Below are positions 533 to 58,995 of a DNA stretch of 64,000 nucleotides, in pieces; position 1 is the stretch's first letter; every line of letters starts with the position of its first letter. Source of the stretch: a virus (Duplodnaviria; Caudoviricetes); IMG/VR virus record IMGVR_UViG_2926528486_000004, positions 885-64,884 of that record; one strand, given 5' to 3'. The notes below the pieces were generated by a model that saw nothing but the letters and a program-made list of their open reading frames with translations, ran no database searches and was not told where the DNA came from. Position numbers and translations under genes: made by a program.

Positions 533-562
533 ATTATACACGAACGAATGTTCTATATTCAA
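533..562 (-). promoter_or_regulatory. sigma-A promoter with LexA/DinR (SOS) box
   Basis: CGAACGAATGTTCT at 541-554 matches the Bacillus SOS box and lies between -35 TTGAAT (562-557) and -10 TATAAT (538-533). Confidence 0.8.
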
Positions 563-1353
563 CCGTTAAGCCAATCGTAAAATACTCCGCTTTCATTAAC
601 CGTCCGCTGGCGTACGATTCGAGTAGTCGCGTTCTGCCATGCTCGATACAAATAATCGTCCAGCTTGCGGATCTTTTGCTGCTTCGTTTTCAGTATCGCA
701 TTATGGAACGCAGTCACGAACGGCTCCGGATTATCCTCGATGACCACTTCGCTGTTGATTGATCGTTTAGCTCGAAGAAGAATGCCGTAATATTTATAAA
801 TTTCTTCGGCGATGAAGTACCGTTCCATGGCGTTGTAGACGTCATTTGGCAGCGAATCTTTTAAGGCTTGCGATGGGACTGACGTGTCTAAATATGTATT
901 ATTTTTAAGATTAATAGAATCTAAAGGTTCGTTTTCGTTTTTCGCTAGTTTAGCGTTACTCTCCGTTGGCTCTGCGCTATCTACACGATTGGACACGCTC
1001 GACTGGTCATTGCGAGTAAAACGCAGCTCATTGACGGGTAGAATGCGCAATATGTTGGCGCCCTTCCCTCCGTTTATCTTACGTAGCGTGGCGACTTTCT
1101 CAACGATGCCAAGCTCGCCAAGCTTATTGACGATGCGCCTCGCGGTCTTCTCACTTTTGCCGATAATCTCCGCCAAGGTTGCGGCTTTTAAATGTGCTGC
1201 TCCCGCAAACTTGACGGCATATCGTGCGATGGTACTCAGCGTCAGGCGATCCGTGTCGTTTAGTTCGAATGCGTTACGTTTGATATGCGTGTCAACTGCG
1301 TCGTTTAATTGCTGCGTCGTATTGAAAGTTTGGTAGTCCGATAGATAGTGCAT
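559..1353 (-). CDS. HTH replication-initiator-like protein
   Basis: wHTH (TLAEIIGKSEKTARRIVNKL), low-complexity Asn-rich linker, C-terminal ...FYDWL typical of Bacillus phage/plasmid Rep-like proteins. Confidence 0.65.
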   Translation of the reverse strand: MHYLSDYQTFNTTQQLNDAVDTHIKRNAFELNDTDRLTLSTIARYAVKFAGAAHLKAATLAEIIGKSEKTARRIVNKLGELGIVEKVATLRKINGGKGANILRILPVNELRFTRNDQSSVSNRVDSAEPTESNAKLAKNENEPLDSINLKNNTYLDTSVPSQALKDSLPNDVYNAMERYFIAEEIYKYYGILLRAKRSINSEVVIEDNPEPFVTAFHNAILKTKQQKIRKLDDYLYRAWQNATTRIVRQRTVNESGVFYDWLNG

Positions 1354-1386
1354 CAGTTTCGCCCCTTATTCGTTTATTTAAATATA

Positions 1387-1449
1387 ATTATATATCGCTA
1401 TGTCGATATGTCAATCCCTATTTACAAAATATCGATATAACGTTATAAT
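1387..1449. promoter_or_regulatory. Divergent sigma-A promoters with probable XRE operators
   Basis: Minus: TTGACA(1414-1409)-16-TATAAT(1392-1387); plus: TTTACA(1421)-17-TATAAT(1444); imperfect ATATCG..CGATAT palindromes in both spacers. Confidence 0.7.
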
Positions 1450-1484
1450 TAAATCAAATAATCACGGACAAGGAGTGACGCTGA

Positions 1485-1691
1485 ATGCTTTACGTTAAAG
1501 TCTCGGAGATACTCGAAGAACGCAATATCACACGGGCAGCGCTCGCAGAAATGACCGGCTTACGTCCAAATGTGATAAGCGAAATATGCAACAATCAGCG
1601 CACGACTATTAATCGCGAACATATCGCACGTATTGCTAAAGCGTTAGATGTTACGGACACTAATCAATTATTAGAGTTACGCTCACTTTAA
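1485..1691 (+). CDS. XRE/Cro-family HTH regulator
   Basis: 68 aa, ITRAALAEMTGLRPNVISEICNN HTH. Confidence 0.85.
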   Translation: MLYVKVSEILEERNITRAALAEMTGLRPNVISEICNNQRTTINREHIARIAKALDVTDTNQLLELRSL

Positions 1692-2333
1692 AACCATTCG
1701 AATGCCGTCGGTCATTGTTATCGGCTTTGCTTCGGGTGGTTTTTCTTTTTTGAGCGACTGGACAAACGCTGTAAATGACTGCGCTTGGAATATGCGAAAC
1801 GGATAGTCGGCGGCATTTATCGCATATGGACGCTCGCTTAATATAAGGACATGCGGAAATGGTTTCGGCATAATACCTGCGCGATAGAAGTCAACGTATC
1901 GACCTAGCTTTTCCGCCATTTGCCGGTCACTATAAAGCGTACGCTGTACCTCCACGAAAAAGCCAGTCTTGCGATACTGACAATATACGTCCGGCTCAAC
2001 GGTACCTTTCCGTCCGTACTTCGGCTCGACTAAGAACGTCCTTGTCGCACCAAGCATTCGCAGCTCCTTATACACGTCAAGTATCGCGAGGAAGTGGCCG
2101 ATCTTTGCGCTGTTCTTTTTAATCTGCGTCTCTGCACCGAAATATAGAAACGGCACGAACGCTTTCGACCGCTGTATATGACCGTCGCGCCATAAACGAA
2201 GCAACACGTTGTTAGCCGAGTAATTCGGACGCTTGTTATCTGCGAAATGTATTTCCGCAATACTGTCGCGATCCATTACTCGGAATCGATTCAAGTCTGC
2301 GATTATCTCCTTATCTCTCTGCGTCAATGGCAT
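1683..2333 (-). CDS. Replication-relaxation family protein
   Basis: RDKEIIADLNRFRVM...HFLAI...EPD...FFVEVQR motifs; paired with FtsK; start taken at MPLTQRD. Confidence 0.75.
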   Translation of the reverse strand: MPLTQRDKEIIADLNRFRVMDRDSIAEIHFADNKRPNYSANNVLLRLWRDGHIQRSKAFVPFLYFGAETQIKKNSAKIGHFLAILDVYKELRMLGATRTFLVEPKYGRKGTVEPDVYCQYRKTGFFVEVQRTLYSDRQMAEKLGRYVDFYRAGIMPKPFPHVLILSERPYAINAADYPFRIFQAQSFTAFVQSLKKEKPPEAKPITMTDGIRMVLK

Positions 2334-3456
2334 CGTAAAACACATCCTCTTCCGTTAGTTTTTCTTGGTCCTGCGTGACTGGTTTCGTTTTACCTTTCGA
2401 AACCATGAACGGATTTAGTAACTCCTTTGCGTCCCCCATTTCGAGGTACGGCGCCTGCAAGTCGTAAAGTTTGTCGCTATTCATTACAAAGCGTCCAGGT
2501 TCTTCTATCTTCTCCGCGTCAGGCGTATTGACGATTCGTGCCTCCGTTTTGTCTCGCAGCTTAAAGCCCATGCTCACCGTTAAGTTTACGCGAATAGTCG
2601 TGTCTAGGACCTTCGCATTCGGTCGCTGCATCGAAAGGATTGCGAATACTCCGAGCGTCCTACCTATCGCAACAACTTCCGTCAATATCTCCATGACAGT
2701 CTCATCCTTGCGCAGCATGACAAATTCATCGATACACACCACGAGATATGGACGCCTATGTTCCACTGGCAACTCATCGATATGACTGACTTCGAATGTT
2801 TCCGTCAAATCGCTGCGTTCGTCTAGTTCGCGTTTGATGTGACATAGCATCTCCGCGATATCTCTACCGCTGCTCAAGACGCATTGCACATGCTCGACTT
2901 TACGGAAGATATGAAACTCCGACTTCTTGCAGTCGCCTAGGTATAGCTTTAATTCGCTTGGCTTTTTTGCCAGTATCAGCGTAGTTAATATCGACCTCAA
3001 TTGTGTTGACTTACCGCTACCTGTTTCGCCAGCAATAAGGATGTGCGGTTGCTTTAATAAGTCGAATGCTACATAGGCGCCCGTACGATCCTTTCCGCAG
3101 ATTATACCGAGCTTGAGTTTTGTCAACTGTTCGCGAATATCTTCGATGTCATACGCCAAGTCTCCGGTTGATGACTTCGAATAAATCGTCAGTGTATAGC
3201 GTTTGACTTCGCCTTCTAGTCGGATATGTTCTCCGAAGTGTTGTAAGATTGCGAAATAGTTGCGTTTAAGTATGTCGGGATTCAAGCCGTTCGGAAGCGA
3301 GAAAGTATATTGCGTTGAATGGTCGGTGATTTTTACGGAGACTATTTTCGGAAAAATTGGCCGCTCGAGCGTGCCGAGATAAATATTGCCGCTTTTAAAT
3401 GCGCTGATCAACCGTTTCCTTGCGTTAAGGTTCGTGATTAAATGTCGCCAGCTCAT
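2311..3456 (-). CDS. FtsK/SpoIIIE-family ATPase
   Basis: PHILIAGETGSGKST Walker A, VVCIDEF Walker B, ILSMQRP. Confidence 0.9.
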   Translation of the reverse strand: MSWRHLITNLNARKRLISAFKSGNIYLGTLERPIFPKIVSVKITDHSTQYTFSLPNGLNPDILKRNYFAILQHFGEHIRLEGEVKRYTLTIYSKSSTGDLAYDIEDIREQLTKLKLGIICGKDRTGAYVAFDLLKQPHILIAGETGSGKSTQLRSILTTLILAKKPSELKLYLGDCKKSEFHIFRKVEHVQCVLSSGRDIAEMLCHIKRELDERSDLTETFEVSHIDELPVEHRRPYLVVCIDEFVMLRKDETVMEILTEVVAIGRTLGVFAILSMQRPNAKVLDTTIRVNLTVSMGFKLRDKTEARIVNTPDAEKIEEPGRFVMNSDKLYDLQAPYLEMGDAKELLNPFMVSKGKTKPVTQDQEKLTEEDVFYDAIDAER

Positions 3457-3641
3457 TTGAGCCACCCGATAAGCGCGTTCGTTTCGATGAAGTATACGCC
3501 TGCCGCAAGTCCTGCGAGTGGTAGCAATATTCGTATGACTGTGCCTAGTGCGTGAAATCCGTAAGTCTCGGCCGTCTTGTCTACCGCCGCTACCAATATC
3601 GTCGAGCCTGCCGCCAATAACATCGTCGTTGTAAATAACAT
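3453..3641 (-). CDS. Small membrane protein of the FtsK module
   Basis: Two hydrophobic segments; RBS GGAGG before MLFTTT (an upstream start is possible). Confidence 0.6.
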   Translation of the reverse strand: MLFTTTMLLAAGSTILVAAVDKTAETYGFHALGTVIRILLPLAGLAAGVYFIETNALIGWLK

Positions 3642-25763: not shown

Positions 25764-26327
25764 GTGATTACATTGAGTAACGCGGTGGATGCGATTAAAA
25801 CAAAACGCGATATTGAGCGCATGAAAAAAGCCCTTCACGGGCGAGATCGTTTGTTGTTCGTTATAGGTGTATCTTTCGGTTTGCGTATAAGCGACTTGCT
25901 TACGTTGAAGATTGGCGACTTACGTAATAAAACGCATTTGACCGTCGTTGAGAAAAAGACGACTGGTACACGTAAGCAACGAAAGCCCCGCCGCATTAAA
26001 CTGAGCCAAACGGTGGTTGCCGAGGTTAAAGCGCTTGGCGGTCATAACGACGATTACTTGTTTCAATCGCGCAAAGGCGTCAATCAGCCAATCAGCCGCG
26101 TCCAAGCTTACCGCATACTCAACGATGCTGCCGAACGTGCTGGCATTGACGTGAATATTGGAACGCACAGCTTACGGAAGGCGTTCGGCTGGCAATTGTA
26201 TAACAAAGGCATCGACGTGACACGTATTATGGAAATCTTCGGCCATTCAACGCCGGCAATGACGCTTAAGTATATCGGAATCACATCGCAAGAAATTGAC
26301 GATGCATACGAAGCTATCGAGGTTTAA
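25764..26327 (+). CDS. Small tyrosine recombinase (catalytic domain only)
   Basis: GLRISDLL, EKKT, HSLRKAF, FGHSTPAMTLKYIG: complete R-K-H-R-H-Y set. Confidence 0.92.
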   Translation: MITLSNAVDAIKTKRDIERMKKALHGRDRLLFVIGVSFGLRISDLLTLKIGDLRNKTHLTVVEKKTTGTRKQRKPRRIKLSQTVVAEVKALGGHNDDYLFQSRKGVNQPISRVQAYRILNDAAERAGIDVNIGTHSLRKAFGWQLYNKGIDVTRIMEIFGHSTPAMTLKYIGITSQEIDDAYEAIEV

Positions 26328-51973: not shown

Positions 51974-52117
51974 TTAGTCACCCCCGATTCCACCGCCTCC
52001 TGGTGAAGCAACATTTATTGAATCACTTCCCTCGGTTACTGCTGCGGTAGCTTGTCCGGCTAGAAATCCAAATGTTAATGAAGTTACAATTAAAAAGGCT
52101 AGTACGATTTTTTTCAA
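51974..52117 (-). CDS. aimP: Arbitrium pro-peptide AimP (47 aa; not in ORF track)
   Basis: AAGGAG RBS overlapping aimR stop, TTG start; MKKIVLAFLIVTSLTFGFLAGQATAAVTEGSDSINVASPGGGGIGGD*: signal peptide plus Gly-rich C-terminal peptide. Confidence 0.88.
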   Translation of the reverse strand: MKKIVLAFLIVTSLTFGFLAGQATAAVTEGSDSINVASPGGGGIGGD

Positions 52118-52129
52118 TTTTCCATCTCC

Positions 52130-53290
52130 TTATGCGATATTTATATTGCACATTACAGTCGCAGAGAATATATATCCAGGGAATTTTTCTATCTCTCTTC
52201 TCGGTAGTTCAGCGAAAAATCTATCTCCTTTTTCTATAAAACTTGCTAATGATTGAAGTAATAAATGTGGATCTTCTTTGGCTATTCCAAGGTAACATAA
52301 TGCAAATGGATTTGTGCTGTGTTCTTCACGATCGTAAAAAATCTCATTAACTTTCTCATACTCCCCGATTCTCGCGTAATAATGCATTTTTTCTAGGTTA
52401 TCGCACGTTTCGTTTTCCGAAGAGGCTTGACCCCACAAAGTATTGACGAAAAAGATATCCAATACCGTAACCTCATTAATTAAGTCATTCCTCTCTTGTT
52501 GCTCAAGTAGCTTTTTATATGTCTCGAAGTACCTAAGACTTAATTCTCGGTTTTCGAAAACGTACGATGTTCCTAATAAGTGATACGTGTGTGCGGTGAA
52601 TTTTGAGCATAAAAATTTTGAATTAATTACATTATTTGCGTAAAAACGAGCTTTTTTTACATCCCCTCTTTGATACAGATATCCTCTTGCGAAAATCTCC
52701 GATAGTCTGGCGCTGTAACATTCCTTAATGTAGACGTTTTTTATTTTATCTATTTCTTTTTCTACTTCCTTTGCAATTTTAAACATAAAAGAGTACTCGC
52801 CCATCCTGTACAGGATATTTGACTTAAGAAGTAACGAAAAAACTCTTGTAGTGTGGTTTTTTGGCTTATACCTTTCTACCGTTTGAAGGATGGATTCTAA
52901 AGGTTTAGATTTTTTTTGGAAACTTAATGCAATACCATAAATCTCCGCCCAATCTTTGTTCTCTCTTGAAACGTTTTTTTGTAAGTCAATCATATTTTGA
53001 AGCAGTTGGAAGTTTCTTGTTGTTGAGGCGTATTCCATGAGGTGTCTACAATTTTGTCTATTCTCTGTCCTTACCATTTCCATTGCTACAATTTCAATTA
53101 ATTCATCTTCCCTTTCGGGGGCTAAGAACCTTATTGCAGATAAATAAAATCTAAAAGACAAATCAGAAGTATCATAATTAAACCATTTAGATATTGATGA
53201 GTCATCATAATTTATCGCACCTGCTAATTCTATATTAGTAACATCCTTGTCCGGTCTCTCCATCAATGTTCGGAATAACTTACGTAACAT
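52130..53290 (-). CDS. aimR: Arbitrium receptor AimR (HTH + TPR, RRNPP family)
   Basis: 386 aa; N-terminal HTH; LMEYAS...NKDWAEIY; KKARFYA...YHLLGTSYVFEN TPR pattern; followed by signal-peptide ORF. Confidence 0.88.
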   Translation of the reverse strand: MLRKLFRTLMERPDKDVTNIELAGAINYDDSSISKWFNYDTSDLSFRFYLSAIRFLAPEREDELIEIVAMEMVRTENRQNCRHLMEYASTTRNFQLLQNMIDLQKNVSRENKDWAEIYGIALSFQKKSKPLESILQTVERYKPKNHTTRVFSLLLKSNILYRMGEYSFMFKIAKEVEKEIDKIKNVYIKECYSARLSEIFARGYLYQRGDVKKARFYANNVINSKFLCSKFTAHTYHLLGTSYVFENRELSLRYFETYKKLLEQQERNDLINEVTVLDIFFVNTLWGQASSENETCDNLEKMHYYARIGEYEKVNEIFYDREEHSTNPFALCYLGIAKEDPHLLLQSLASFIEKGDRFFAELPRREIEKFPGYIFSATVMCNINIA

Positions 53291-53899: not shown

Positions 53900-54907
53900 T
53901 TACTTACCCAGCGAAGAACTCCGTAGTTTCACGTACAACTCCCGTACACTTTCCGACAATCGAACGCTTTCACGCAACGATTCCTCTCCGTATTTCACCA
54001 ACGCCTCATTCGCATCCTTAAGGCTTCCGCCGTTACTTTCTCTCGCATCGATATACGCATTTCTCAGCCGTACACGCCCGCGCATTGACTTCTCGATCTC
54101 AGCCCGCAACTTTTCGCCAGCCTTGTCGTTATCAGTAGCGATAATTAATTCTTCGACAGCCGACCGTTTGATTTCGTCCGCCTTCCACTCGTTAAAACTT
54201 GCACCGCCAGTTGCAATCGCTGAGTAGCCTGCCTGTCGCCAGCTCATCGCGTCAATTTCTGCTTCACATATTACCGTTTGAGCTGTCGCCAATTCCAGCC
54301 CGTAAACTAGTTCGCGAATAGGAACCGCGCCCCGTTCGTACCAAAACACTTTACCGCGTGTTTTCCGATACTTAACATTCGCCAGCTCGCCGTTTGGCAG
54401 ACGCCAGGGTATTACGACTGCCTGACTCTTCGCATCATATAGCACGCCTGCCTGCCGCTGTATTTCTGCGCTAATGCCCCGCGATTCGAGATACGAATAA
54501 TCCTGCCGATAATCTGCCAACAAGCCGTCTTTCAACGGCTGCCTAACCCACTGAACCTTTAGTCGTATCGGCTTGAGTTTTATATCGGTCGAATCGGTCG
54601 TAAATCCATACGACGCAAGCAAATATTCTTCGACTTCCTCATACGTTTCGTGACGCAAGAATGCGAGTAGCTTGACGATGTTACCGCTGGACCATTCGTC
54701 GTCGTACGAGCCGCTGTCCGACCATGTGCCCGCTGGATAGTCGCCATAGTCCTCGAGTCGCACGAAGAAGCTCGGCGATTTATCATAGCGAAACGGGCTT
54801 GCTGCGATTAGCTTGTCGTTGGACCAGGTCGGTCGCGTCCAGTCGAACTTCTCAAGCTCGCCGCGAATATCGATGTGTAACGATTGTCCGCGAATAATGA
54901 AAGTCAT
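53900..54907 (-). CDS. DNA primase (TOPRIM)
   Basis: SPFRYDKSPSF, YLESRGI, ICEAEIDAMS, IATDNDKAG, KDANE. Confidence 0.9.
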   Translation of the reverse strand: MTFIIRGQSLHIDIRGELEKFDWTRPTWSNDKLIAASPFRYDKSPSFFVRLEDYGDYPAGTWSDSGSYDDEWSSGNIVKLLAFLRHETYEEVEEYLLASYGFTTDSTDIKLKPIRLKVQWVRQPLKDGLLADYRQDYSYLESRGISAEIQRQAGVLYDAKSQAVVIPWRLPNGELANVKYRKTRGKVFWYERGAVPIRELVYGLELATAQTVICEAEIDAMSWRQAGYSAIATGGASFNEWKADEIKRSAVEELIIATDNDKAGEKLRAEIEKSMRGRVRLRNAYIDARESNGGSLKDANEALVKYGEESLRESVRLSESVRELYVKLRSSSLGK

Positions 54908-54990: not shown

Positions 54991-56376
54991 CTAGAAATCG
55001 AAATGCTTTGCGGCCGCCTCTCCGCTGTCCATTTCGCGAACAATTCCGTAGTTAGGCAAATAAAGCACGCTCACTTTAGTTCCTTCGCCACCGTTACGTC
55101 CTTTGCCGATTTCGATAATACCTTCACCGTCCAGCGAATCAATGCCGAAAGTGTTTGTCGCGTCCTCAAGGACTGCTTTCGTTTTCTTTATTTCTGACCG
55201 TTTGGGCGCACGCAACTCACGATTTCCGTCCTCGTCTGTCTCATCGCGAACCTCTTCCGCCTGCGTAATAATATGCATGGTCACGCCAGTTTGACCCGCA
55301 AGTCTACGCAGCTTTTTCGAAGTATTAGCGACGTCGCCGCCGGCAGTCTTGCTCGTATTTGCTTCATAGTCCATCAAATAAATTGGATCGACGAGCACAA
55401 CGTCAGCCTTTGTCGCATGTATATCCGCTTCAAGCTGGCTGATACCTCGTTTATAAAAGTCGACGTCATCTGCTGCACGAAGGGTAATGTTGCCCGCCAG
55501 GTGTTCCCCTTCCGCCATTTGCATCAGAAATACTTCGAGTCCTGCTTCGAACTCATCCGATAACTTTCCGGTTATCAGTTGCTTATTCTCGAAGCCGACT
55601 TCGTAATCAGTCCCGTCAATCATATCAACCGCAATGCCAGCGCGAGCACTAATCGACGAGTATGCGCGTGCCATCCATTCGAATCGCGACATTTCCATCG
55701 CCCATACAAGCACGTTCGCACCTTGCGCAGCAGCTTCTACTATCTCTTCCATCGTAAAAATGGATTTACCGCGACCTGACCGCCCGTACCACGTGAACAT
55801 GTTTCCGCTTAAATAGCCGCCAATCTGTTCGTTAATGCTCGGAAACTTCGAACGCCATATCTTAAATGACTCGCCAGCCTTGCGTTTCCGATATTCATCG
55901 AGGAAGGAACTACCGTCAGATTTGACGTCCGTTCCCACCTTAGATAGAACATTTGTTCCTATTATAGCCTGTTCTGTTTTTTCACGCAATAGTTTTAAGA
56001 CTTCGGCACCGTCGGAATTTTCTTTTATAGTCCGTTCTAACCAGCCGGGTTTATTCTTCTCGCTTTCTTCGCGTGTTCCGTTAATTAGATCGGTCAGCCA
56101 CGTTAAAGCAGTGTGACCTTTTATTTCCCGTACTAAAAATTCGTAACTGTCTCCGATTTGTGGCGCATACCATCTTGCAAAGTCCGGTATCTTTGCCGCA
56201 ACAACTTCCGAGCCAGGCGATTGACCGCGATTCTGCTCGGCATAGTCACGGACAAATCGGAAGACTTCTCGCTCGCCGTCAGACGGAAAGTCGCGTTCAG
56301 TGATGCCGTAGCGAGTGAGTGCTGCCGGATCGTTGCCGTCGATGACTTTCGATAATAAAAATGTTCCGTATTGCAA
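54991..56376 (-). CDS. DnaB-like replicative helicase
   Basis: GRSGRGKS Walker A, AMEM, LVDPIYLM, ITQA, KGRNG. Confidence 0.9.
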   Translation of the reverse strand: MQYGTFLLSKVIDGNDPAALTRYGITERDFPSDGEREVFRFVRDYAEQNRGQSPGSEVVAAKIPDFARWYAPQIGDSYEFLVREIKGHTALTWLTDLINGTREESEKNKPGWLERTIKENSDGAEVLKLLREKTEQAIIGTNVLSKVGTDVKSDGSSFLDEYRKRKAGESFKIWRSKFPSINEQIGGYLSGNMFTWYGRSGRGKSIFTMEEIVEAAAQGANVLVWAMEMSRFEWMARAYSSISARAGIAVDMIDGTDYEVGFENKQLITGKLSDEFEAGLEVFLMQMAEGEHLAGNITLRAADDVDFYKRGISQLEADIHATKADVVLVDPIYLMDYEANTSKTAGGDVANTSKKLRRLAGQTGVTMHIITQAEEVRDETDEDGNRELRAPKRSEIKKTKAVLEDATNTFGIDSLDGEGIIEIGKGRNGGEGTKVSVLYLPNYGIVREMDSGEAAAKHFDF

Positions 56377-56419
56377 AAGCGTTCGCCTCCCTTAATTAAC
56401 AATTTCTATCTTTTGTTTC

Positions 56420-56764
56420 TCAAATATCCTGTAGTTCAAGCATCCTGTCCCTTGTCTGTTTTATAAATGTCTTCCATTCTTCACACATAGATCCACCGTT
56501 TTCAAATAAATCATTTAAGCAATAACCTGCAAACAGTTGCAATTCAGCATGGGATATTTCGTACTTTTTTAACCGTTCAATTTCTTTTTGCTCTTTTTCA
56601 GCTAAATCGATTAAATATGGAACAAATTTTGTGCTGCCAGAGTTCCACTCCTCTTTACACTCAGCTAAGTCATCTTTCCATTCATCTAAATCTTTAATTC
56701 TCTCCTCCAAATTAACTCCTCCTACCTTGTATTTATTAATAAATATAATTGTCTGACTTTTCAT
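56420..56764 (-). CDS. Hypothetical protein (AT-rich insert)
   Basis: ORF track; likely TTG start at LEERIK after AGGAGG. Confidence 0.55.
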   Translation of the reverse strand: MKSQTIIFINKYKVGGVNLEERIKDLDEWKDDLAECKEEWNSGSTKFVPYLIDLAEKEQKEIERLKKYEISHAELQLFAGYCLNDLFENGGSMCEEWKTFIKQTRDRMLELQDI

Positions 56765-56832
56765 ATTTCGACATTTTTTCTATATTCATTGTGTTAATAT
56801 CCTAACAAATACATACAAATGGGGGTGAAAAA

Positions 56833-56952
56833 ATGAAAAAATGGATTGCTACAGCATTTTTAACTTCTGCACTTATTTTAGGTATGTCCTCACTTGCACA
56901 TGCTGATAAAAAAGTTGAAGTAATAAAAGCTGCCCATTATGAGAATAAATAA
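56833..56952 (+). CDS. Orphan secreted signalling-type peptide (39 aa; not in ORF track)
   Basis: GGGGGTG RBS; MKKWIATAFLTSALILGMSSLAHA|DKKVEVIKAAHYENK*: Sec signal with AxA site plus 15-aa mature part. Confidence 0.75.
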   Translation: MKKWIATAFLTSALILGMSSLAHADKKVEVIKAAHYENK

Positions 56953-57066
56953 TCGACCTGAATATCCTTTGCCTAACCAGTTTGCTTTTGAGCCTCTATG
57001 GCTCTTTTTTTCGCTACAAAATTTACACAATGAGTTTCCTTCAAGGAAAATGTTCTATCATTAAGT

Positions 57067-57267
57067 TCACTTATTTGCTTTGGTCTTTTCTTCAATCCTG
57101 CGTGCTTCAGCTCGTAATTGCATTGCTTTTGTTCGGAGTCTTCCTACCCTATCATACTCACCCTTCAAAGCAGCTTGCTTTGATCGAGACTCCCAAAGAC
57201 CAGCCCTATCGTGCAGTTTGCTCACTTTTTTGCTCACCGACTTATTCACCTCTTTGCTAGGAAACAT
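57067..57267 (-). CDS. Small basic helical protein
   Basis: ORF track. Confidence 0.5.
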   Translation of the reverse strand: MFPSKEVNKSVSKKVSKLHDRAGLWESRSKQAALKGEYDRVGRLRTKAMQLRAEARRIEEKTKANK

Positions 57268-57284
57268 TTTGCTTTTCGTGTTTA

Positions 57285-57455
57285 TCAGCCCTCGTTTAAT
57301 TCAAATGTAATGATTCCCCAAAGTCCGGCATCCTGATACCATTCAAAACTGCTTTGAAATGCTCGTTTATATCCTTGTTTATCAAGCTCGTTCATTCGAT
57401 CAGCTAATTCAGAAGGTGTAAGACCAGAAACATTTAAAACAATGAACTTTTCCAT
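57285..57455 (-). CDS. 56-aa hypothetical protein (not in ORF track)
   Basis: GGGAGG RBS; MEKFIVLNVSGLTPSELADRMNELDKQGY... Confidence 0.55.
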   Translation of the reverse strand: MEKFIVLNVSGLTPSELADRMNELDKQGYKRAFQSSFEWYQDAGLWGIITFELNEG

Positions 57456-57996: not shown

Positions 57997-58237
57997 TGAC
58001 TGGCTCCTTGTCGTCGTTATACGTTATTATAAATTCCGTTGTATCGTCGTTTACCGGACAATCCAAGCATTGCAATAAACCTGAATAGTCTCCGTCATAT
58101 ATATAGTAAGTTTCGCTTCCGCACCTAGGGCAGTATTCCCAATAATGAACGTCCTTTGCCTTGAATGTGTAAAAGTATTTTCGTTTCATCTTCGCAACCC
58201 CCTTTTCGACTCTCCCACAAACGTCTGCACTCCGCAC
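57989..58237 (-). CDS. Zn-ribbon protein
   Basis: CPRCG...CLDC; true start probably MKRKY. Confidence 0.55.
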   Translation of the reverse strand: MRSADVCGRVEKGVAKMKRKYFYTFKAKDVHYWEYCPRCGSETYYIYDGDYSGLLQCLDCPVNDDTTEFIITYNDDKEPVNE

Positions 58238-58995
58238 TGTTCGTTTATCCTATCCGGCAACCTCTCTTCGCCAAACACGTCGACCAAATCGTACGGCTCC
58301 GTATCTCCTTCGACCCGTTTTCCCGTATAAAATATCGGCAAATTCGACGTATAGACTGTCGGCATCTGATTCGTCACGCGATGATTGACGACCGCATGAA
58401 GGTCCGAGCGAAATCCATCCGTGCTCCCTCGTACGCCTAAATCGTCCAGTACCGCAAATGGCGCATGCTTGGCTCGTTCCATAGCGAGGTAATACCGCTT
58501 AGATGCCGCCTCTGCAATGACGTCAGGTACGCGCGCACGATTGAATTGGTTGTAGTCCGTCTGCCATTCGTTGACGTCGAGGAAATATGCCGGACGCTGT
58601 GCCGGTTGCAGTCCTCGCTGAATTGATCCGAGATAATGGACGGTCAGCCATTCGTTGAGTATCGCAGCCGCCGTCGTCGTCTTGCCCGTGCCTGGGCTTT
58701 CGCTTTTTAAATACAGCGACTTGACGCGCTCACCTTCGTTAAATTGACGCTCAAATGTCGCAATATATGCGTATACATTTTTGTATACATTCGTCTGTGA
58801 CTCGCGCGCTGGCGAATTAGCAACCGTAACCAGGCGATAATCTGCCGGCACGCCTGCCGCTGCTGCTCGACCGCCTGCGCCCGATTTGCCGTGGATAGCA
58901 ATAAAATGCGGGCATGTCGATTTACATTCGGCTGAGTTAGCGAGCTTGCATTCGGATGATAATAGGCAGCGACTGGCGTGCGAATTATTAGTCAA
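58186..58995 (-). CDS. DnaC/IstB-like helicase loader ATPase
   Basis: PGTGKTT, VLDDLG, TVYTSN, DRI, GESKR. Confidence 0.88.
   Translation of the reverse strand: MTNNSHASRCLLSSECKLANSAECKSTCPHFIAIHGKSGAGGRAAAAGVPADYRLVTVANSPARESQTNVYKNVYAYIATFERQFNEGERVKSLYLKSESPGTGKTTTAAAILNEWLTVHYLGSIQRGLQPAQRPAYFLDVNEWQTDYNQFNRARVPDVIAEAASKRYYLAMERAKHAPFAVLDDLGVRGSTDGFRSDLHAVVNHRVTNQMPTVYTSNLPIFYTGKRVEGDTEPYDLVDVFGEERLPDRINEQCGVQTFVGESKRGLRR

What the first reader, a model, noticed from the sequence alone, without database searches (positions are those of the whole stretch)
56767..56952. Second, orphan secreted-peptide gene with no adjacent receptor
Seen: a plus-strand 39-aa ORF within the otherwise minus-strand early operon, with a strong RBS: MKKWIATAFLTSALILGMSSLAHA-DKKVEVIKAAHYENK. 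It has a signal peptide with an AHA cleavage site and a 15-aa mature tail, sits in an AT-rich insert, and has a Spo0A-box match (TTCGACA, 56767-56773) upstream. Known: this is the layout of Phr/PapR/NprX/AimP pro-peptides, which normally follow their receptor gene. Inference: a receptor-less signal (e.g. AAHYENK/HYENK) that could mimic or jam a host quorum-sensing system or another element's arbitrium, or act as a second input to this phage.
Basis: partly seen in the sequence, partly recalled or inferred. Interest (0 to 1): 0.75.

Follow-up and report, generated by a model that had tools for sequence, protein, structure and literature searches.

The report
Stand-alone secreted mini-peptide gene in prophage
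A tiny self-contained gene inside a Cytobacillus prophage encodes a 39-residue exported peptide of a very rare, uncharacterised family that never sits beside a receptor gene, so it is a real accessory gene whose role as a signal remains unproven.

Summary
The ORF is real. Window 56833..56952 (+) encodes MKKWIATAFLTSALILGMSSLAHA|DKKVEVIKAAHYENK, with a GGGGGTGA ribosome site, an extended -10 promoter (TGtTAATAT) and a hairpin plus T7 terminator. It lies antisense in the replication module of a ~65-kb AimR/AimP prophage, inside a 30-34% GC accessory slot. A distant relative prophage has only 115 bp at that slot.

Promoter, ORF and terminator recur at 89-97% DNA identity at three other places, in two further genomes of the same genus (Cytobacillus by record titles). 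None has a TPR/RRNPP receptor within 8-9 kb.

Protein searches of 5.8 and 1.8 billion sequences gave seven other distinct sequences, eight with the window's own. All share the signal peptide and DKKVEVIK, with tails that differ in length and sequence (HYE[NSR]K, ADYEM, ...CDY[EG]M). No longer protein was found.

The promoter, 5'UTR and first codons are shared with a second family of two-cysteine secreted peptides in prophages of the same genus, once in tandem with this gene.

The TTCGACA box is at chance level. The host's own RRNPP pheromones look nothing like this peptide.

Verdict: a genuine phage moron for a small exported peptide. The orphan quorum-signal reading is neither supported nor excluded.

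The parts
56400..57100 (.). AT-rich accessory slot (GC 0.30-0.34) between the helicase gene and the next replication-module genes
   Evidence: Composition profile. A distantly related prophage in G059:C7 (helicase 48% aa, DnaC-like 54% aa) has only 115 bp between the helicase gene and the next gene.
56750..57011 (+). Conserved mobile unit (moron): promoter, 5'UTR, ORF, 3'UTR and terminator
   Evidence: Identity to G056:C45 is 82/83 upstream, 71/72 signal-peptide codons and 57/59 3'UTR. Identity to G085:C66 is 75/83, 69/72 and 48/59. Similarity is lost outside these limits in G085.
56792..56800 (+). Extended -10 promoter element TGtTAATAT (inferred)
   Evidence: TG-y-TA-w-w-n-T is found at the same distance from the ribosome site in 14 of 14 upstream regions of this gene family and its two-cysteine sibling family. 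The generic scan instead proposed TTTTCA-17-TATATT at 56758-56786. There are no transcript data.
56767..56773 (+). TTCGACA (0A-box-like heptamer), chance level
   Evidence: 13 matches in the window against 11.4 +/- 3.6 expected. It reads TTCGACG in G085:C66.
56821..56828 (+). Ribosome-binding site GGGGGTGA (GGAGGTGA in G085:C66)
   Evidence: Sequence and alignment.
56833..56904 (+). Signal peptide codons: MKKWIATAFLTSALILGMSSLAHA
   Evidence: The residues AFLTSALI, SS and AHA are invariant across the five sequences of alignment A2, and the same holds by eye for P0007 and P0008.
56905..56952 (+). Predicted released 15-mer DKKVEVIKAAHYENK plus stop codon. DKKVEVIK is invariant in the family and the tail is variable.
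   Evidence: Predicted pI 8.4 and GRAVY -1.17.
56953..57011 (+). 3'UTR and intrinsic terminator (stem 56990-57004, T-run 57005-57011)
   Evidence: The stem is kept with a different loop in G085. The same 3' element follows unrelated small ORFs in other genomes of the genus.
56420..56764 (-). Divergent 114-aa ORF in the same AT-rich slot (likely real start at the TTG after GGAGGAG). Not part of the conserved unit.
   Evidence: No Pfam, PHROG, NCBIfam or PADLOC hit. Found in 1 of 43 genomes of the genus, the window's own.
51974..53290 (-). Context: the prophage's arbitrium pair, AimR (52130..53290) and a 47-aa AimP-like ORF (51974..52117), 3.5 kb from the finding
   Evidence: PF22871 AimR, E 7.2e-51. 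phrog_1728, E 1.2e-66. Translation. It is the only AimR in the genome.

Best explanation
Window 56750-57011 is a phage moron: a self-contained gene with its own promoter, ribosome site and terminator, inserted antisense into the replication operon of a temperate, arbitrium-carrying prophage of a Cytobacillus-type host. Its product is a 39-residue pre-peptide. The Sec pathway would export it and signal peptidase I would cut it after AHA, releasing the hydrophilic 15-mer DKKVEVIKAAHYENK outside the cell. Because it is transcribed against the lytic operon from a housekeeping-type promoter, it is most likely made by lysogens as an accessory (lysogenic-conversion) product. It belongs to a tiny uncharacterised family with an invariant signal peptide plus DKKVEVIK and a variable tail. 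By its shared promoter, 5'UTR and first codons, and by one tandem arrangement, it also belongs to a wider set of small exported peptides carried by prophages of this genus. Shown here: the gene's anatomy, its mobility as a unit, its rarity and the absence of an adjacent receptor. Inferred: transcription in lysogens, export, cleavage and an extracellular site of action. The target is unknown.
For: ORF, ribosome site and terminator are as described. The composition island is clear, and the slot is only 115 bp in a distant relative prophage. The whole unit recurs in G056:C45, G085:C66 and G085:C40 in unrelated surroundings: a chromosomal islet, a prophage remnant between mutL and miaA/hfq, and a prophage beside glnA/glnR. 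The relatives are all mini-peptides of 39-49 aa, counting P0008 from its internal MKKW. None of the 6 candidates of 71-2000 aa scored. One relative carries an NCBI protein accession as a hypothetical protein. The hydrophobic core is only 15 residues with mean hydropathy 1.8 and is followed by A-x-A, which fits a cleavable signal rather than a membrane anchor. An 82% identical 53-57-nt promoter/5'UTR/start region precedes two-cysteine secreted peptides in prophage-like regions of the same and related genomes. One of these lies in tandem directly after this gene in G085:C40. In that sibling family, synonymous codon changes outnumber non-synonymous ones in 6 of the 10 informative signal-peptide and mature-region comparisons printed (2 of the 14 had no change at all). 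Non-synonymous changes lead in 2 (the mature regions of L176/L178 and L176/L179), and two comparisons are near even. This fits translated genes under constraint.
Against: No expression data exist. The signal-peptide call is by inspection only. Within the family the DNA copies are so similar that selection on the ORF cannot be measured: window against G085:C66 shows 3 non-synonymous changes, 1 synonymous change and an end indel. The window allele lacks the cysteine-containing stretch of the longer alleles, and its last codons are shifted by a 1-nt indel, so it could be a decaying form. The generic promoter and terminator scans are not enriched over shuffles. No function or target is shown.
Confidence: 0.55

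Rival explanations
1. Orphan RRNPP-type pro-peptide. After export and trimming, a C-terminal fragment is re-imported by Opp and binds a cytoplasmic TPR receptor encoded elsewhere: the host's, another element's, or this phage's AimR. It would act as a cross-talk or jamming signal.
For: Its size and layout match the propeptide criteria quoted in PMC10075063 (passages read). The signal peptide and pro-region are conserved while the C-terminal tail varies (HYE[NSR]K, ADYEM, CDY[EG]M), as expected if the tail sets specificity. The prophage carries AimR/AimP, and the host has at least five further RRNPP-type receptors. AimP cross-talk between phages is reported in the abstract of PMC13220667.
Against: Adjacency to a receptor, a defining feature, fails in 4 of 4 loci, and 0 of 28 neighbouring ORFs carry TPR, RNPP_C, RapH_N or AimR domains. 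No receptor-linked homologue was found in 269 + 401 genomes or in the protein libraries. The cognate peptides of the host and of the prophage's AimR are unrelated in sequence. The invariant part is DKKVEVIK directly after the cleavage site, not the C-terminus. The tail also changes by an indel and a frameshift.
Confidence: 0.17
2. A decaying allele: a shortened, end-shifted derivative of a 47-49-aa cysteine-containing peptide gene. It survives only because it travels inside a mobile promoter-terminator cassette, and it has no present function.
For: Longer alleles end in ...SCDYEM or ...YCDYGM, and the Cytobacillus alleles lack 9-10 residues including the cysteine. There is a 1-nt indel at the last codons, and three different residues (N/S/R) at position 38 among otherwise near-identical sequences. 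The copy in G085:C40 has a different 5' end at a contig edge.
Against: The reading frame, ribosome site, promoter and terminator are intact in 3 of 4 DNA copies. The HYESK allele is seen on 10 contigs. Which form is ancestral is unknown, because no root is available.
Confidence: 0.15
3. An uncleaved small membrane peptide, such as a type I toxin or a superinfection-exclusion factor, that acts in the producer's own membrane.
For: It is short with a single hydrophobic segment and a charged tail, it is prophage-borne, and it is oriented against its neighbours.
Against: The hydrophobic core of 15 residues is short for a membrane span, and it is followed by a canonical A-H-A site. No Rfam family, including antitoxin RNAs, matched at E <= 1 in 56200-57400. 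No PADLOC hit was found. The terminator is one-directional and the transcript overlaps no opposite-strand ORF.
Confidence: 0.08
4. A chance ORF. The conserved unit acts as RNA or DNA only, for example as a promoter/terminator cassette that interferes with the lytic operon.
For: 39-codon ORFs are common in AT-rich DNA. The 3' element is a repeat found after unrelated ORFs.
Against: A strong ribosome site sits at the right spacing. Protein-level relatives in another genus (a Psychrobacillus record) keep the signal peptide and DKKVEVIK while their tails differ.
Confidence: 0.05

Closest known systems
Phr / AimP / PapR / NprX pro-peptides of RRNPP quorum-sensing pairs (criteria as quoted in PMC10075063, passages read)
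   Same: A 10-100-aa ORF with a Sec-type signal peptide, a short hydrophilic pro-region and a strong ribosome site. It is carried by a temperate phage of a spore-former that also has a true AimR-AimP pair.
   Different: No adjacent TPR receptor in any of 4 loci. No sequence relation to any receptor-linked propeptide found. The invariant segment is the N-terminus of the released peptide, not its C-terminus. No tandem pheromone repeats like those of the host's own propeptides.
Phage morons: independently transcribed accessory genes between genes of an operon, with their own promoter and terminator and deviant composition (concept recalled from the lambdoid-phage literature; mentioned in the abstract of PMC6469090)
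   Same: It has its own promoter, a terminator, the opposite orientation and deviant GC. It is absent from a related prophage at the same slot and present in unrelated elements.
   Different: The cargo is a 39-aa exported peptide of unknown role rather than a recognisable conversion protein. The promoter and terminator modules are themselves shared among different mini-gene cargos in the genus.
Two-cysteine secreted mini-peptides of prophages in the same genus (sibling family found here, e.g. G000:C2:215450-215575; no published name found)
   Same: About 82% identical promoter, 5'UTR and MKKW start. Same size and layout, each with its own terminator. Prophage or island context with no conserved neighbour. 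Tandem with this family in G085:C40.
   Different: A different signal-peptide core, and a mature region of the form P-x-x-C-x4-8-C-x3-4. The window peptide has no cysteine.
AgrD / cyclic autoinducing peptides (features recalled, not tested against a model beyond NCBIfam)
   Same: The longer alleles of the family end in Cys plus four residues (CDYEM, CDYGM), the ring size of staphylococcal-type autoinducers.
   Different: It has a Sec signal instead of an amphipathic leader, and no C-terminal recognition tail for an AgrB-type protease. No NCBIfam hit was found, and the window allele lacks the cysteine.

Membership tests
RRNPP-type signalling pro-peptide (Phr/AimP/PapR/NprX) | Small ORF (10-100 aa) with a Sec/SPase I secretion signal | tested here: met
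   39 aa with MKK, a 15-residue hydrophobic core and AHA|D, by inspection and hydropathy. No SignalP run was possible.
RRNPP-type signalling pro-peptide (Phr/AimP/PapR/NprX) | Gene directly adjacent to a 250-500-aa TPR receptor gene | tested here: not met
   The window neighbours are a 114-aa ORF with no hit and a 66-aa ORF, and AimR is 3.5 kb away across the primase and helicase genes. In the three other loci, 0 of 28 ORFs within 8-9 kb have TPR, RNPP_C, RapH_N or AimR domains.
RRNPP-type signalling pro-peptide (Phr/AimP/PapR/NprX) | Homology or motif identity with a propeptide that has a known or adjacent receptor | tested here: not met
   Only receptor-less relatives were found. The host and prophage cognate peptides are unrelated.
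RRNPP-type signalling pro-peptide (Phr/AimP/PapR/NprX) | Mature peptide imported by Opp and bound by the receptor, changing its activity | not testable with these tools
   This needs synthetic peptide, binding and reporter assays.
Phage moron | Own promoter and terminator, inserted between genes of a phage operon, deviant base composition, absent from related phages | tested here: met
   Searches cover the signals and composition. Searches show the slot is 115 bp in the G059 relative. Searches show the unit moves intact. Promoter activity itself is inferred.
Type I toxin-antitoxin toxin | Membrane-spanning small peptide with an overlapping antisense RNA | tested here: inconclusive
   The core is only 15 residues and is followed by A-x-A. 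There was no Rfam match at E <= 1, and no convincing opposite-strand promoter on reading. An unknown antisense RNA cannot be excluded.
AgrD-type cyclic autoinducer precursor | Cysteine five residues before the processing site, a C-terminal tail removed by AgrB, and a neighbouring agrB | tested here: not met
   The window allele has no cysteine. The family ends at the would-be ring with no tail. No NCBIfam hit was found, and no AgrB-like neighbour is among the ORFs scanned.

The most novel reading that the evidence does not exclude
Prophages of this Cytobacillus-type genus carry a shared expression cassette (TGyTAATAT promoter, common 5'UTR, MKK[WL] start, own terminator). It is loaded with different small exported peptides: this cysteine-free DKKVEVIK family and the two-cysteine family. 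Together they would form a receptor-less, phage-borne repertoire of extracellular peptides. Lysogens would use them to mark kin, to talk across elements, or to jam the peptide sensing of the host or of rival phages. The window peptide would be one word of that code and a second communication output of an arbitrium phage.
Probability: 0.15. Interest if true: 0.75.

Novelty: new variant of a known kind. Interest (0 to 1): 0.4.

Why it matters
Peptide communication in phages is currently defined by receptor-propeptide pairs, and detection tools require adjacency (PMC10075063, passages read). A conserved, mobile, receptor-less exported-peptide gene in an arbitrium prophage is outside that definition. 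So is its promoter-sharing sibling family in prophages of the same genus. If these peptides act on receptors encoded elsewhere, or at the cell surface, they would be an unrecognised layer of lysogen-to-lysogen or phage-to-host interaction. If they do nothing, they show how mini-gene cassettes spread among prophages. Either way the gene is short and cheap to test with a deletion, a synthetic peptide and supernatant mass spectrometry.

Tried and rejected
(1) DNA similarity of 56380-57100 to 50,697 phage records: no match.
(2) tblastn of the 49-aa relative against phages and plasmids: no match.
(3) Two degenerate back-translated patterns in viral contigs: 0 hits each.
(4) Pfam, PHROGs, NCBIfam and PADLOC on the peptide, its relatives and the small neighbours: no family.
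(5) ESM Atlas on the peptide and on the sibling peptide: best scores 0.85 and 0.80, below the level the tool calls meaningful.
(6) Rfam on 56200-57400: nothing at E <= 1.
- Of the 80 loci with DNA, 74 lie in open frames over 110 aa. The 6 shorter frames are cut L7/L12-like genes or lack a signal peptide.
- One locus was confirmed as ribosomal protein L7/L12 by Pfam, and the host's own L7/L12 reads DQKIKVIKAV.
- The motif is therefore shared with L7/L12, most likely by chance, and the scan added no family member.
(8) Two actinobacterial-looking 43-47-aa peptides with ...GDKKVEVIKGV... after a signal peptide (P0009, P0010): E 0.3-0.7, and they were picked by shared words, so they are not counted as relatives.
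(9) The divergent 114-aa ORF as a partner: found only in the window's own genome among 43 of the genus, so rejected.
(10) A conserved neighbour of either peptide family: clustering ORFs from 16 loci gave none beyond the peptides themselves and one short frame over the sibling gene.
(11) The Spo0A box as a regulatory clue: chance level.
(12) Earlier findings of this scan: none for this genome or sequence. The word search returned only unrelated cases.
(13) Literature: no paper with 'orphan Phr', 'orphan AimP' or 'orphan propeptide' in a bacterial sense, and none holding the strings DKKVEVIK, CWIQY or AAHYENK.
(14) The genomic context of the Psychrobacillus relative and of the two short-contig relatives could not be fetched.

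Full report
OBSERVATION

The window sequence and ORF list confirm a plus-strand ORF at 56833..56952. It encodes MKKWIATAFLTSALILGMSSLAHADKKVEVIKAAHYENK (39 aa).

- GGGGGTGA lies at 56821-56828, four bases before the ATG.
- Almost all long ORFs from about 26.4 kb to the window's end are on the minus strand.
- GC is 0.30-0.34 in the 200-nt windows from 56400 to 57099. The flanks are 0.41-0.59, the host genome 0.381 and the prophage about 0.43-0.49.
- A hairpin GAGCC-tctat-GGCTC followed by T7 lies at 56990-57011.
- The generic scans are not enriched over shuffles: 4 promoter-like sites against 3.3 +/- 1.8, and 1 terminator against 1.0 +/- 1.0. They carry little weight on their own.
- The heptamer TTCGACA at 56767-56773 is one of 13 in the window, against 11.4 +/- 3.6 expected. 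31 of 100 shuffles reach 13. It is not evidence of Spo0A control.

The signal-peptide reading rests on inspection and a hydropathy table. The peptide has an MKK start, a 15-residue core (WIATAFLTSALILGM, mean Kyte-Doolittle 1.8), then SSLAHA before D. That would leave a 15-mer with pI 8.4 and GRAVY -1.17. No signal-peptide predictor was available.

SETTING

The window is G000:C10:37803-101802, in a 5.58-Mb genome of 83 contigs. It covers a higher-GC block of about 65 kb inside a 141-kb contig.

PHROG and Pfam scans show a siphovirus-type structural and lysis module and a replication module. The replication module has DNA polymerase, ribonucleotide reductase, primase at 53900-54907, DnaB-like helicase at 54991-56376 and a DnaC-like loader at 58186-58995.

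There is an arbitrium pair. AimR is at 52130-53290 (PF22871, E 7.2e-51; phrog_1728). It is followed by a 47-aa ORF at 51974-52117 that ends ...INVASPGGGGIGGD. This is the "first" peptide to which the finding's title alludes.

The nearest deposited phages by helicase are below 60% identity: 179 of 179 records, the best being Bacillus phage phi18-2 at 46.8%.

A distantly related prophage in G059:C7 (helicase 48%, DnaC-like 54% aa identity) has only 115 bp between the helicase gene and the next gene. The window has about 1.1 kb there. That stretch holds a 114-aa ORF, the peptide gene and two small ORFs. The peptide gene therefore sits in an accessory slot.

THE GENE IS A MOBILE UNIT

A six-frame search of 269 genomes of the family gave strong matches at only four places in three genomes of one genus:
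- the window's own;
- G056:C45 (95% identity);
- G085:C66 (92%);
- G085:C40 (89%).

Every other match had E >= 0.045 and covered only signal-peptide-like stretches of unrelated frames.

A pattern scan of one genome per species (185,579 species) found the same three foreign places. They lie in records titled Cytobacillus horneckiae 1P01SC and Bacillus sp. Bva_UNVM-123.

The DNA alignment shows that promoter region, ribosome site, ORF, 3'UTR and terminator travel together:
- Against G056 the identities are 82/83, 71/72, 44/49, 57/59 and 50/51 in successive segments.
- Against G085:C66 they are 75/83, 69/72, 43/50 and 48/59. Similarity is then lost (22/54).
- The terminator stem is kept with a different loop in G085.
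- The G085:C40 copy has a different 5' end at a contig edge.

The surroundings differ:
- a chromosomal islet in G056;
- a prophage remnant between mutL and miaA/hfq in G085:C66, next to an MT-A70 methylase and integrase fragments;
- a prophage beside glnA/glnR in G085:C40, next to a Dam-type methylase.

None of the 28 neighbouring ORFs scanned has a TPR, RNPP_C, RapH_N or AimR domain.

The divergent 114-aa ORF of the window has no family hit. It occurs in 1 of 43 genomes of the genus, the window's own. It is not a partner of the peptide gene.

THE PROTEIN FAMILY

Searches gave the following results.
- Among 5.8 billion clustered proteins, the peptide found 2 clusters. This query was sent with one extra upstream codon because of the 40-aa minimum, after the error.
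- None of the 6 candidates of 71-2000 aa scored.
- A full HMMER pass over 1.84 billion representatives gave 2 hits at E <= 0.001. One was a 49-aa protein from a Psychrobacillus record.
- A profile of five sequences gave 5 strong hits among 238 candidates.

The distinct sequences are listed:
- ...DKKVEVIKAAHYENK (the window);
- ...AAHYESK (seen on 10 contigs);
- ...AAHYERK;
- ...AADYEM (G085);
- ...GIESDSSSAYCDYGM;
- ...AVASDSNGVSCDYEM;
- ...AVANDSNGVSCDYEM.

The signal peptide is nearly invariant and DKKVEVIK is invariant. The tails differ by a 9-10-residue indel. At the DNA level, a 1-nt indel turns ...E-M-stop into ...E-[SN]-K-stop.

Somewhat longer alleles exist, but every member is a mini-peptide.

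Two further peptides with GDKKVEVIKGV after an actinobacterial-type signal peptide scored only E 0.3-0.7, and they had been selected by shared words. I do not count them.

A metagenome scan for the motif returned ribosomal protein L7/L12 genes. 74 of 80 fetched loci lie in frames over 110 aa. Pfam confirmed one, and the host's L7/L12 reads DQKIKVIKAV. The resemblance is most likely coincidental.

A SIBLING FAMILY WITH THE SAME EXPRESSION CASSETTE

A DNA search of the genus (43 genomes) showed two things.
- The 53-57 nt spanning the promoter, 5'UTR and first codons are about 82% identical to regions in G000:C2, G067, G060 and G056:C56.
- The 3'UTR and terminator form a repeat found in several genomes.

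The 5' matches precede 42-46-aa ORFs such as MKKWFVRLGLVSILTIAIVSPASAAGEVNPDWCRDTQCWIQY. A protein search found this two-cysteine family in 10 of 269 genomes, in 3 of 25 genera, with up to four copies per genome.

All 14 upstream regions examined (3 of the finding's family, 11 of the sibling family) carry TG-y-TA-w-w-n-T at the same distance from a GGAGGTG-type ribosome site. I read this as an extended -10 promoter. That is an inference.

In G085:C40 a sibling gene follows the finding's homologue directly in tandem, each with its own promoter and hairpin.

In the sibling family, close pairs show:
- more synonymous than non-synonymous codon differences in 6 of the 10 informative signal-peptide and mature-region comparisons printed (2 of the 14 showed no change);
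- more non-synonymous changes in 2 (the mature regions of L176/L178 and L176/L179);
- two comparisons near even;
- a coding region better conserved than its flanks.

This fits translated genes under constraint. The equivalent test is not possible for the finding's own family, because its DNA copies are too similar.

No conserved neighbour accompanies either family. In G045 the same 3' element terminates an unrelated 53-aa ORF. The promoter and terminator modules thus look like reusable parts of prophage mini-gene cassettes in this genus.

TEST OF THE QUORUM-SIGNAL READING

The genome has the following RRNPP-type receptors:
- one AimR, in this prophage;
- one Rap;
- three RNPP_C-type regulators;
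- one 423-aa HTH-TPR regulator.

Five of the six have an evident downstream propeptide, several with tandem repeats:
- SKADFGQITPR x6;
- HEIFP[ED] and GIPTQH;
- GLPTQH repeats;
- the AimP tail.

The sixth lies next to the GLPTQH pair and is followed only by a 34-aa hydrophobic ORF.

None resembles DKKVEVIKAAHYENK or its tail, so mimicry has no sequence support. This inventory used Pfam models and is not exhaustive.

The defining adjacency of RRNPP pairs is quoted in PMC10075063 (passages read). It is not met in any of the four loci. Phrase searches for orphan Phr/AimP/propeptide returned no bacterial case. The paper on arbitrium cross-talk (PMC13220667; abstract and one passage seen) concerns AimP peptides that have their own receptors.

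The reading stays open because the conserved-leader, variable-tail pattern is what a specificity-bearing tail would give. It is not supported by any positive result here.

OTHER READINGS

Type I toxin or membrane peptide:
- This is disfavoured by the short core and the A-x-A site.
- There is also no Rfam match and no PADLOC match.
- It is not excluded.

AgrD-like reading of the long alleles:
- The long alleles end in Cys plus four residues.
- This reading fails for lack of a C-terminal tail and for lack of any family hit.
- The window allele has no cysteine.

Decay:
- Decay of the window allele is possible, given the missing stretch and the shifted end.
- However, the expression signals are intact in 3 of 4 DNA copies.
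- The closest allele is also seen on 10 contigs.

VERDICT

The feature is a genuine, mobile, receptor-less moron encoding a small exported peptide of a very rare family that has no family model and no literature match in the libraries and papers searched here. It is tied by its expression cassette to a larger set of prophage mini-peptides.

I put 0.55 on [quoted passage not shown]. I put 0.17 on the orphan RRNPP signal, 0.15 on a decaying allele, 0.08 on a membrane peptide and 0.05 on no translation.

It is the cheapest decisive computation.

Noticed in passing
window 51974-53290 (-): The prophage's arbitrium pair. AimR is a clear PF22871 member, but the 47-aa AimP-like ORF starts with TTG and ends ...SPGGGGIGGD. 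From recall, this tail is unlike the xxxxG[GA] hexapeptides of SPbeta-group phages.
   Followed up: partly
G000:C2:215450-215575 (L038 3451-3579) and loci L176-L189: A family of 42-46-aa secreted peptides with the motif P-x-x-C-x4-8-C-x3-4 (e.g. ...GEVNPDWCRDTQCWIQY). It occurs in prophage-like regions of 10 of 269 genomes of the family, with up to 4 copies per genome. It has the same TGyTAATAT promoter and 5'UTR as the finding, and no Pfam or NCBIfam model.
   Followed up: partly
window 56948-57012, and e.g. L039 3298-3385 and 3959-4007: The 3'UTR plus terminator of the peptide gene is a dispersed repeat in the genus. It follows unrelated small ORFs (a 53-aa ORF in G045) and sometimes no ORF at all. 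This suggests reusable terminator modules in prophage accessory cassettes.
   Followed up: partly
window 56905-56934; metagenome loci L059-L138; G000:C25:21168-21479: The invariant DKKVEVIK(A) of the peptide is also the start of the C-terminal domain of ribosomal protein L7/L12 in many bacteria (the host has DQKIKVIKAV). This is probably coincidence, but it swamps any motif-based DNA scan.
   Followed up: yes
G000:C5:181907-185092 (L044); C3:217000-223000 (L049); C61 (L048); C50 (L045): The host's own Rap and RNPP_C/HTH-TPR receptors are followed by propeptides with tandemly repeated pheromone units (SKADFGQITPR x6, many GLPTQH, GIPTQH x3, HEIFP[ED]). This matches the tandem-duplication theme of PMC11343458 (abstract seen).
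   Followed up: partly
window 57040-57092 and L038 3273-3316: Just right of the cassette, the minus strand reads ATGATAGAACATTTTCCTTGA. It looks like a frameshifted remnant of the start of a 61-aa ORF (MDRTFFV...) that flanks the sibling peptide gene in the host's other prophage. This hints that the cassettes were exchanged between prophages by recombination.
   Followed up: no
window 559-3465 (-): Beyond the endolysin at the left end of the window lie an HTH_36/RepA-like protein, a replication-initiation protein and an FtsK/SpoIIIE-like ATPase. This may be a separate small integrative or plasmid-like element abutting the prophage.
   Followed up: no
window 25764-26327 (+): A 187-aa tyrosine-recombinase ORF (Phage_integrase, E 4e-27) lies on the opposite strand between the large and small terminase genes. 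This is an unusual place and a short length for a prophage integrase.
   Followed up: no
L038 3960-4680 (G000:C2:215959-216679): About 700 bp without convincing ORFs lie downstream of the sibling peptide gene and before a C5 methylase gene. It may be a structured RNA or an intron-like element. It was not examined.
   Followed up: no
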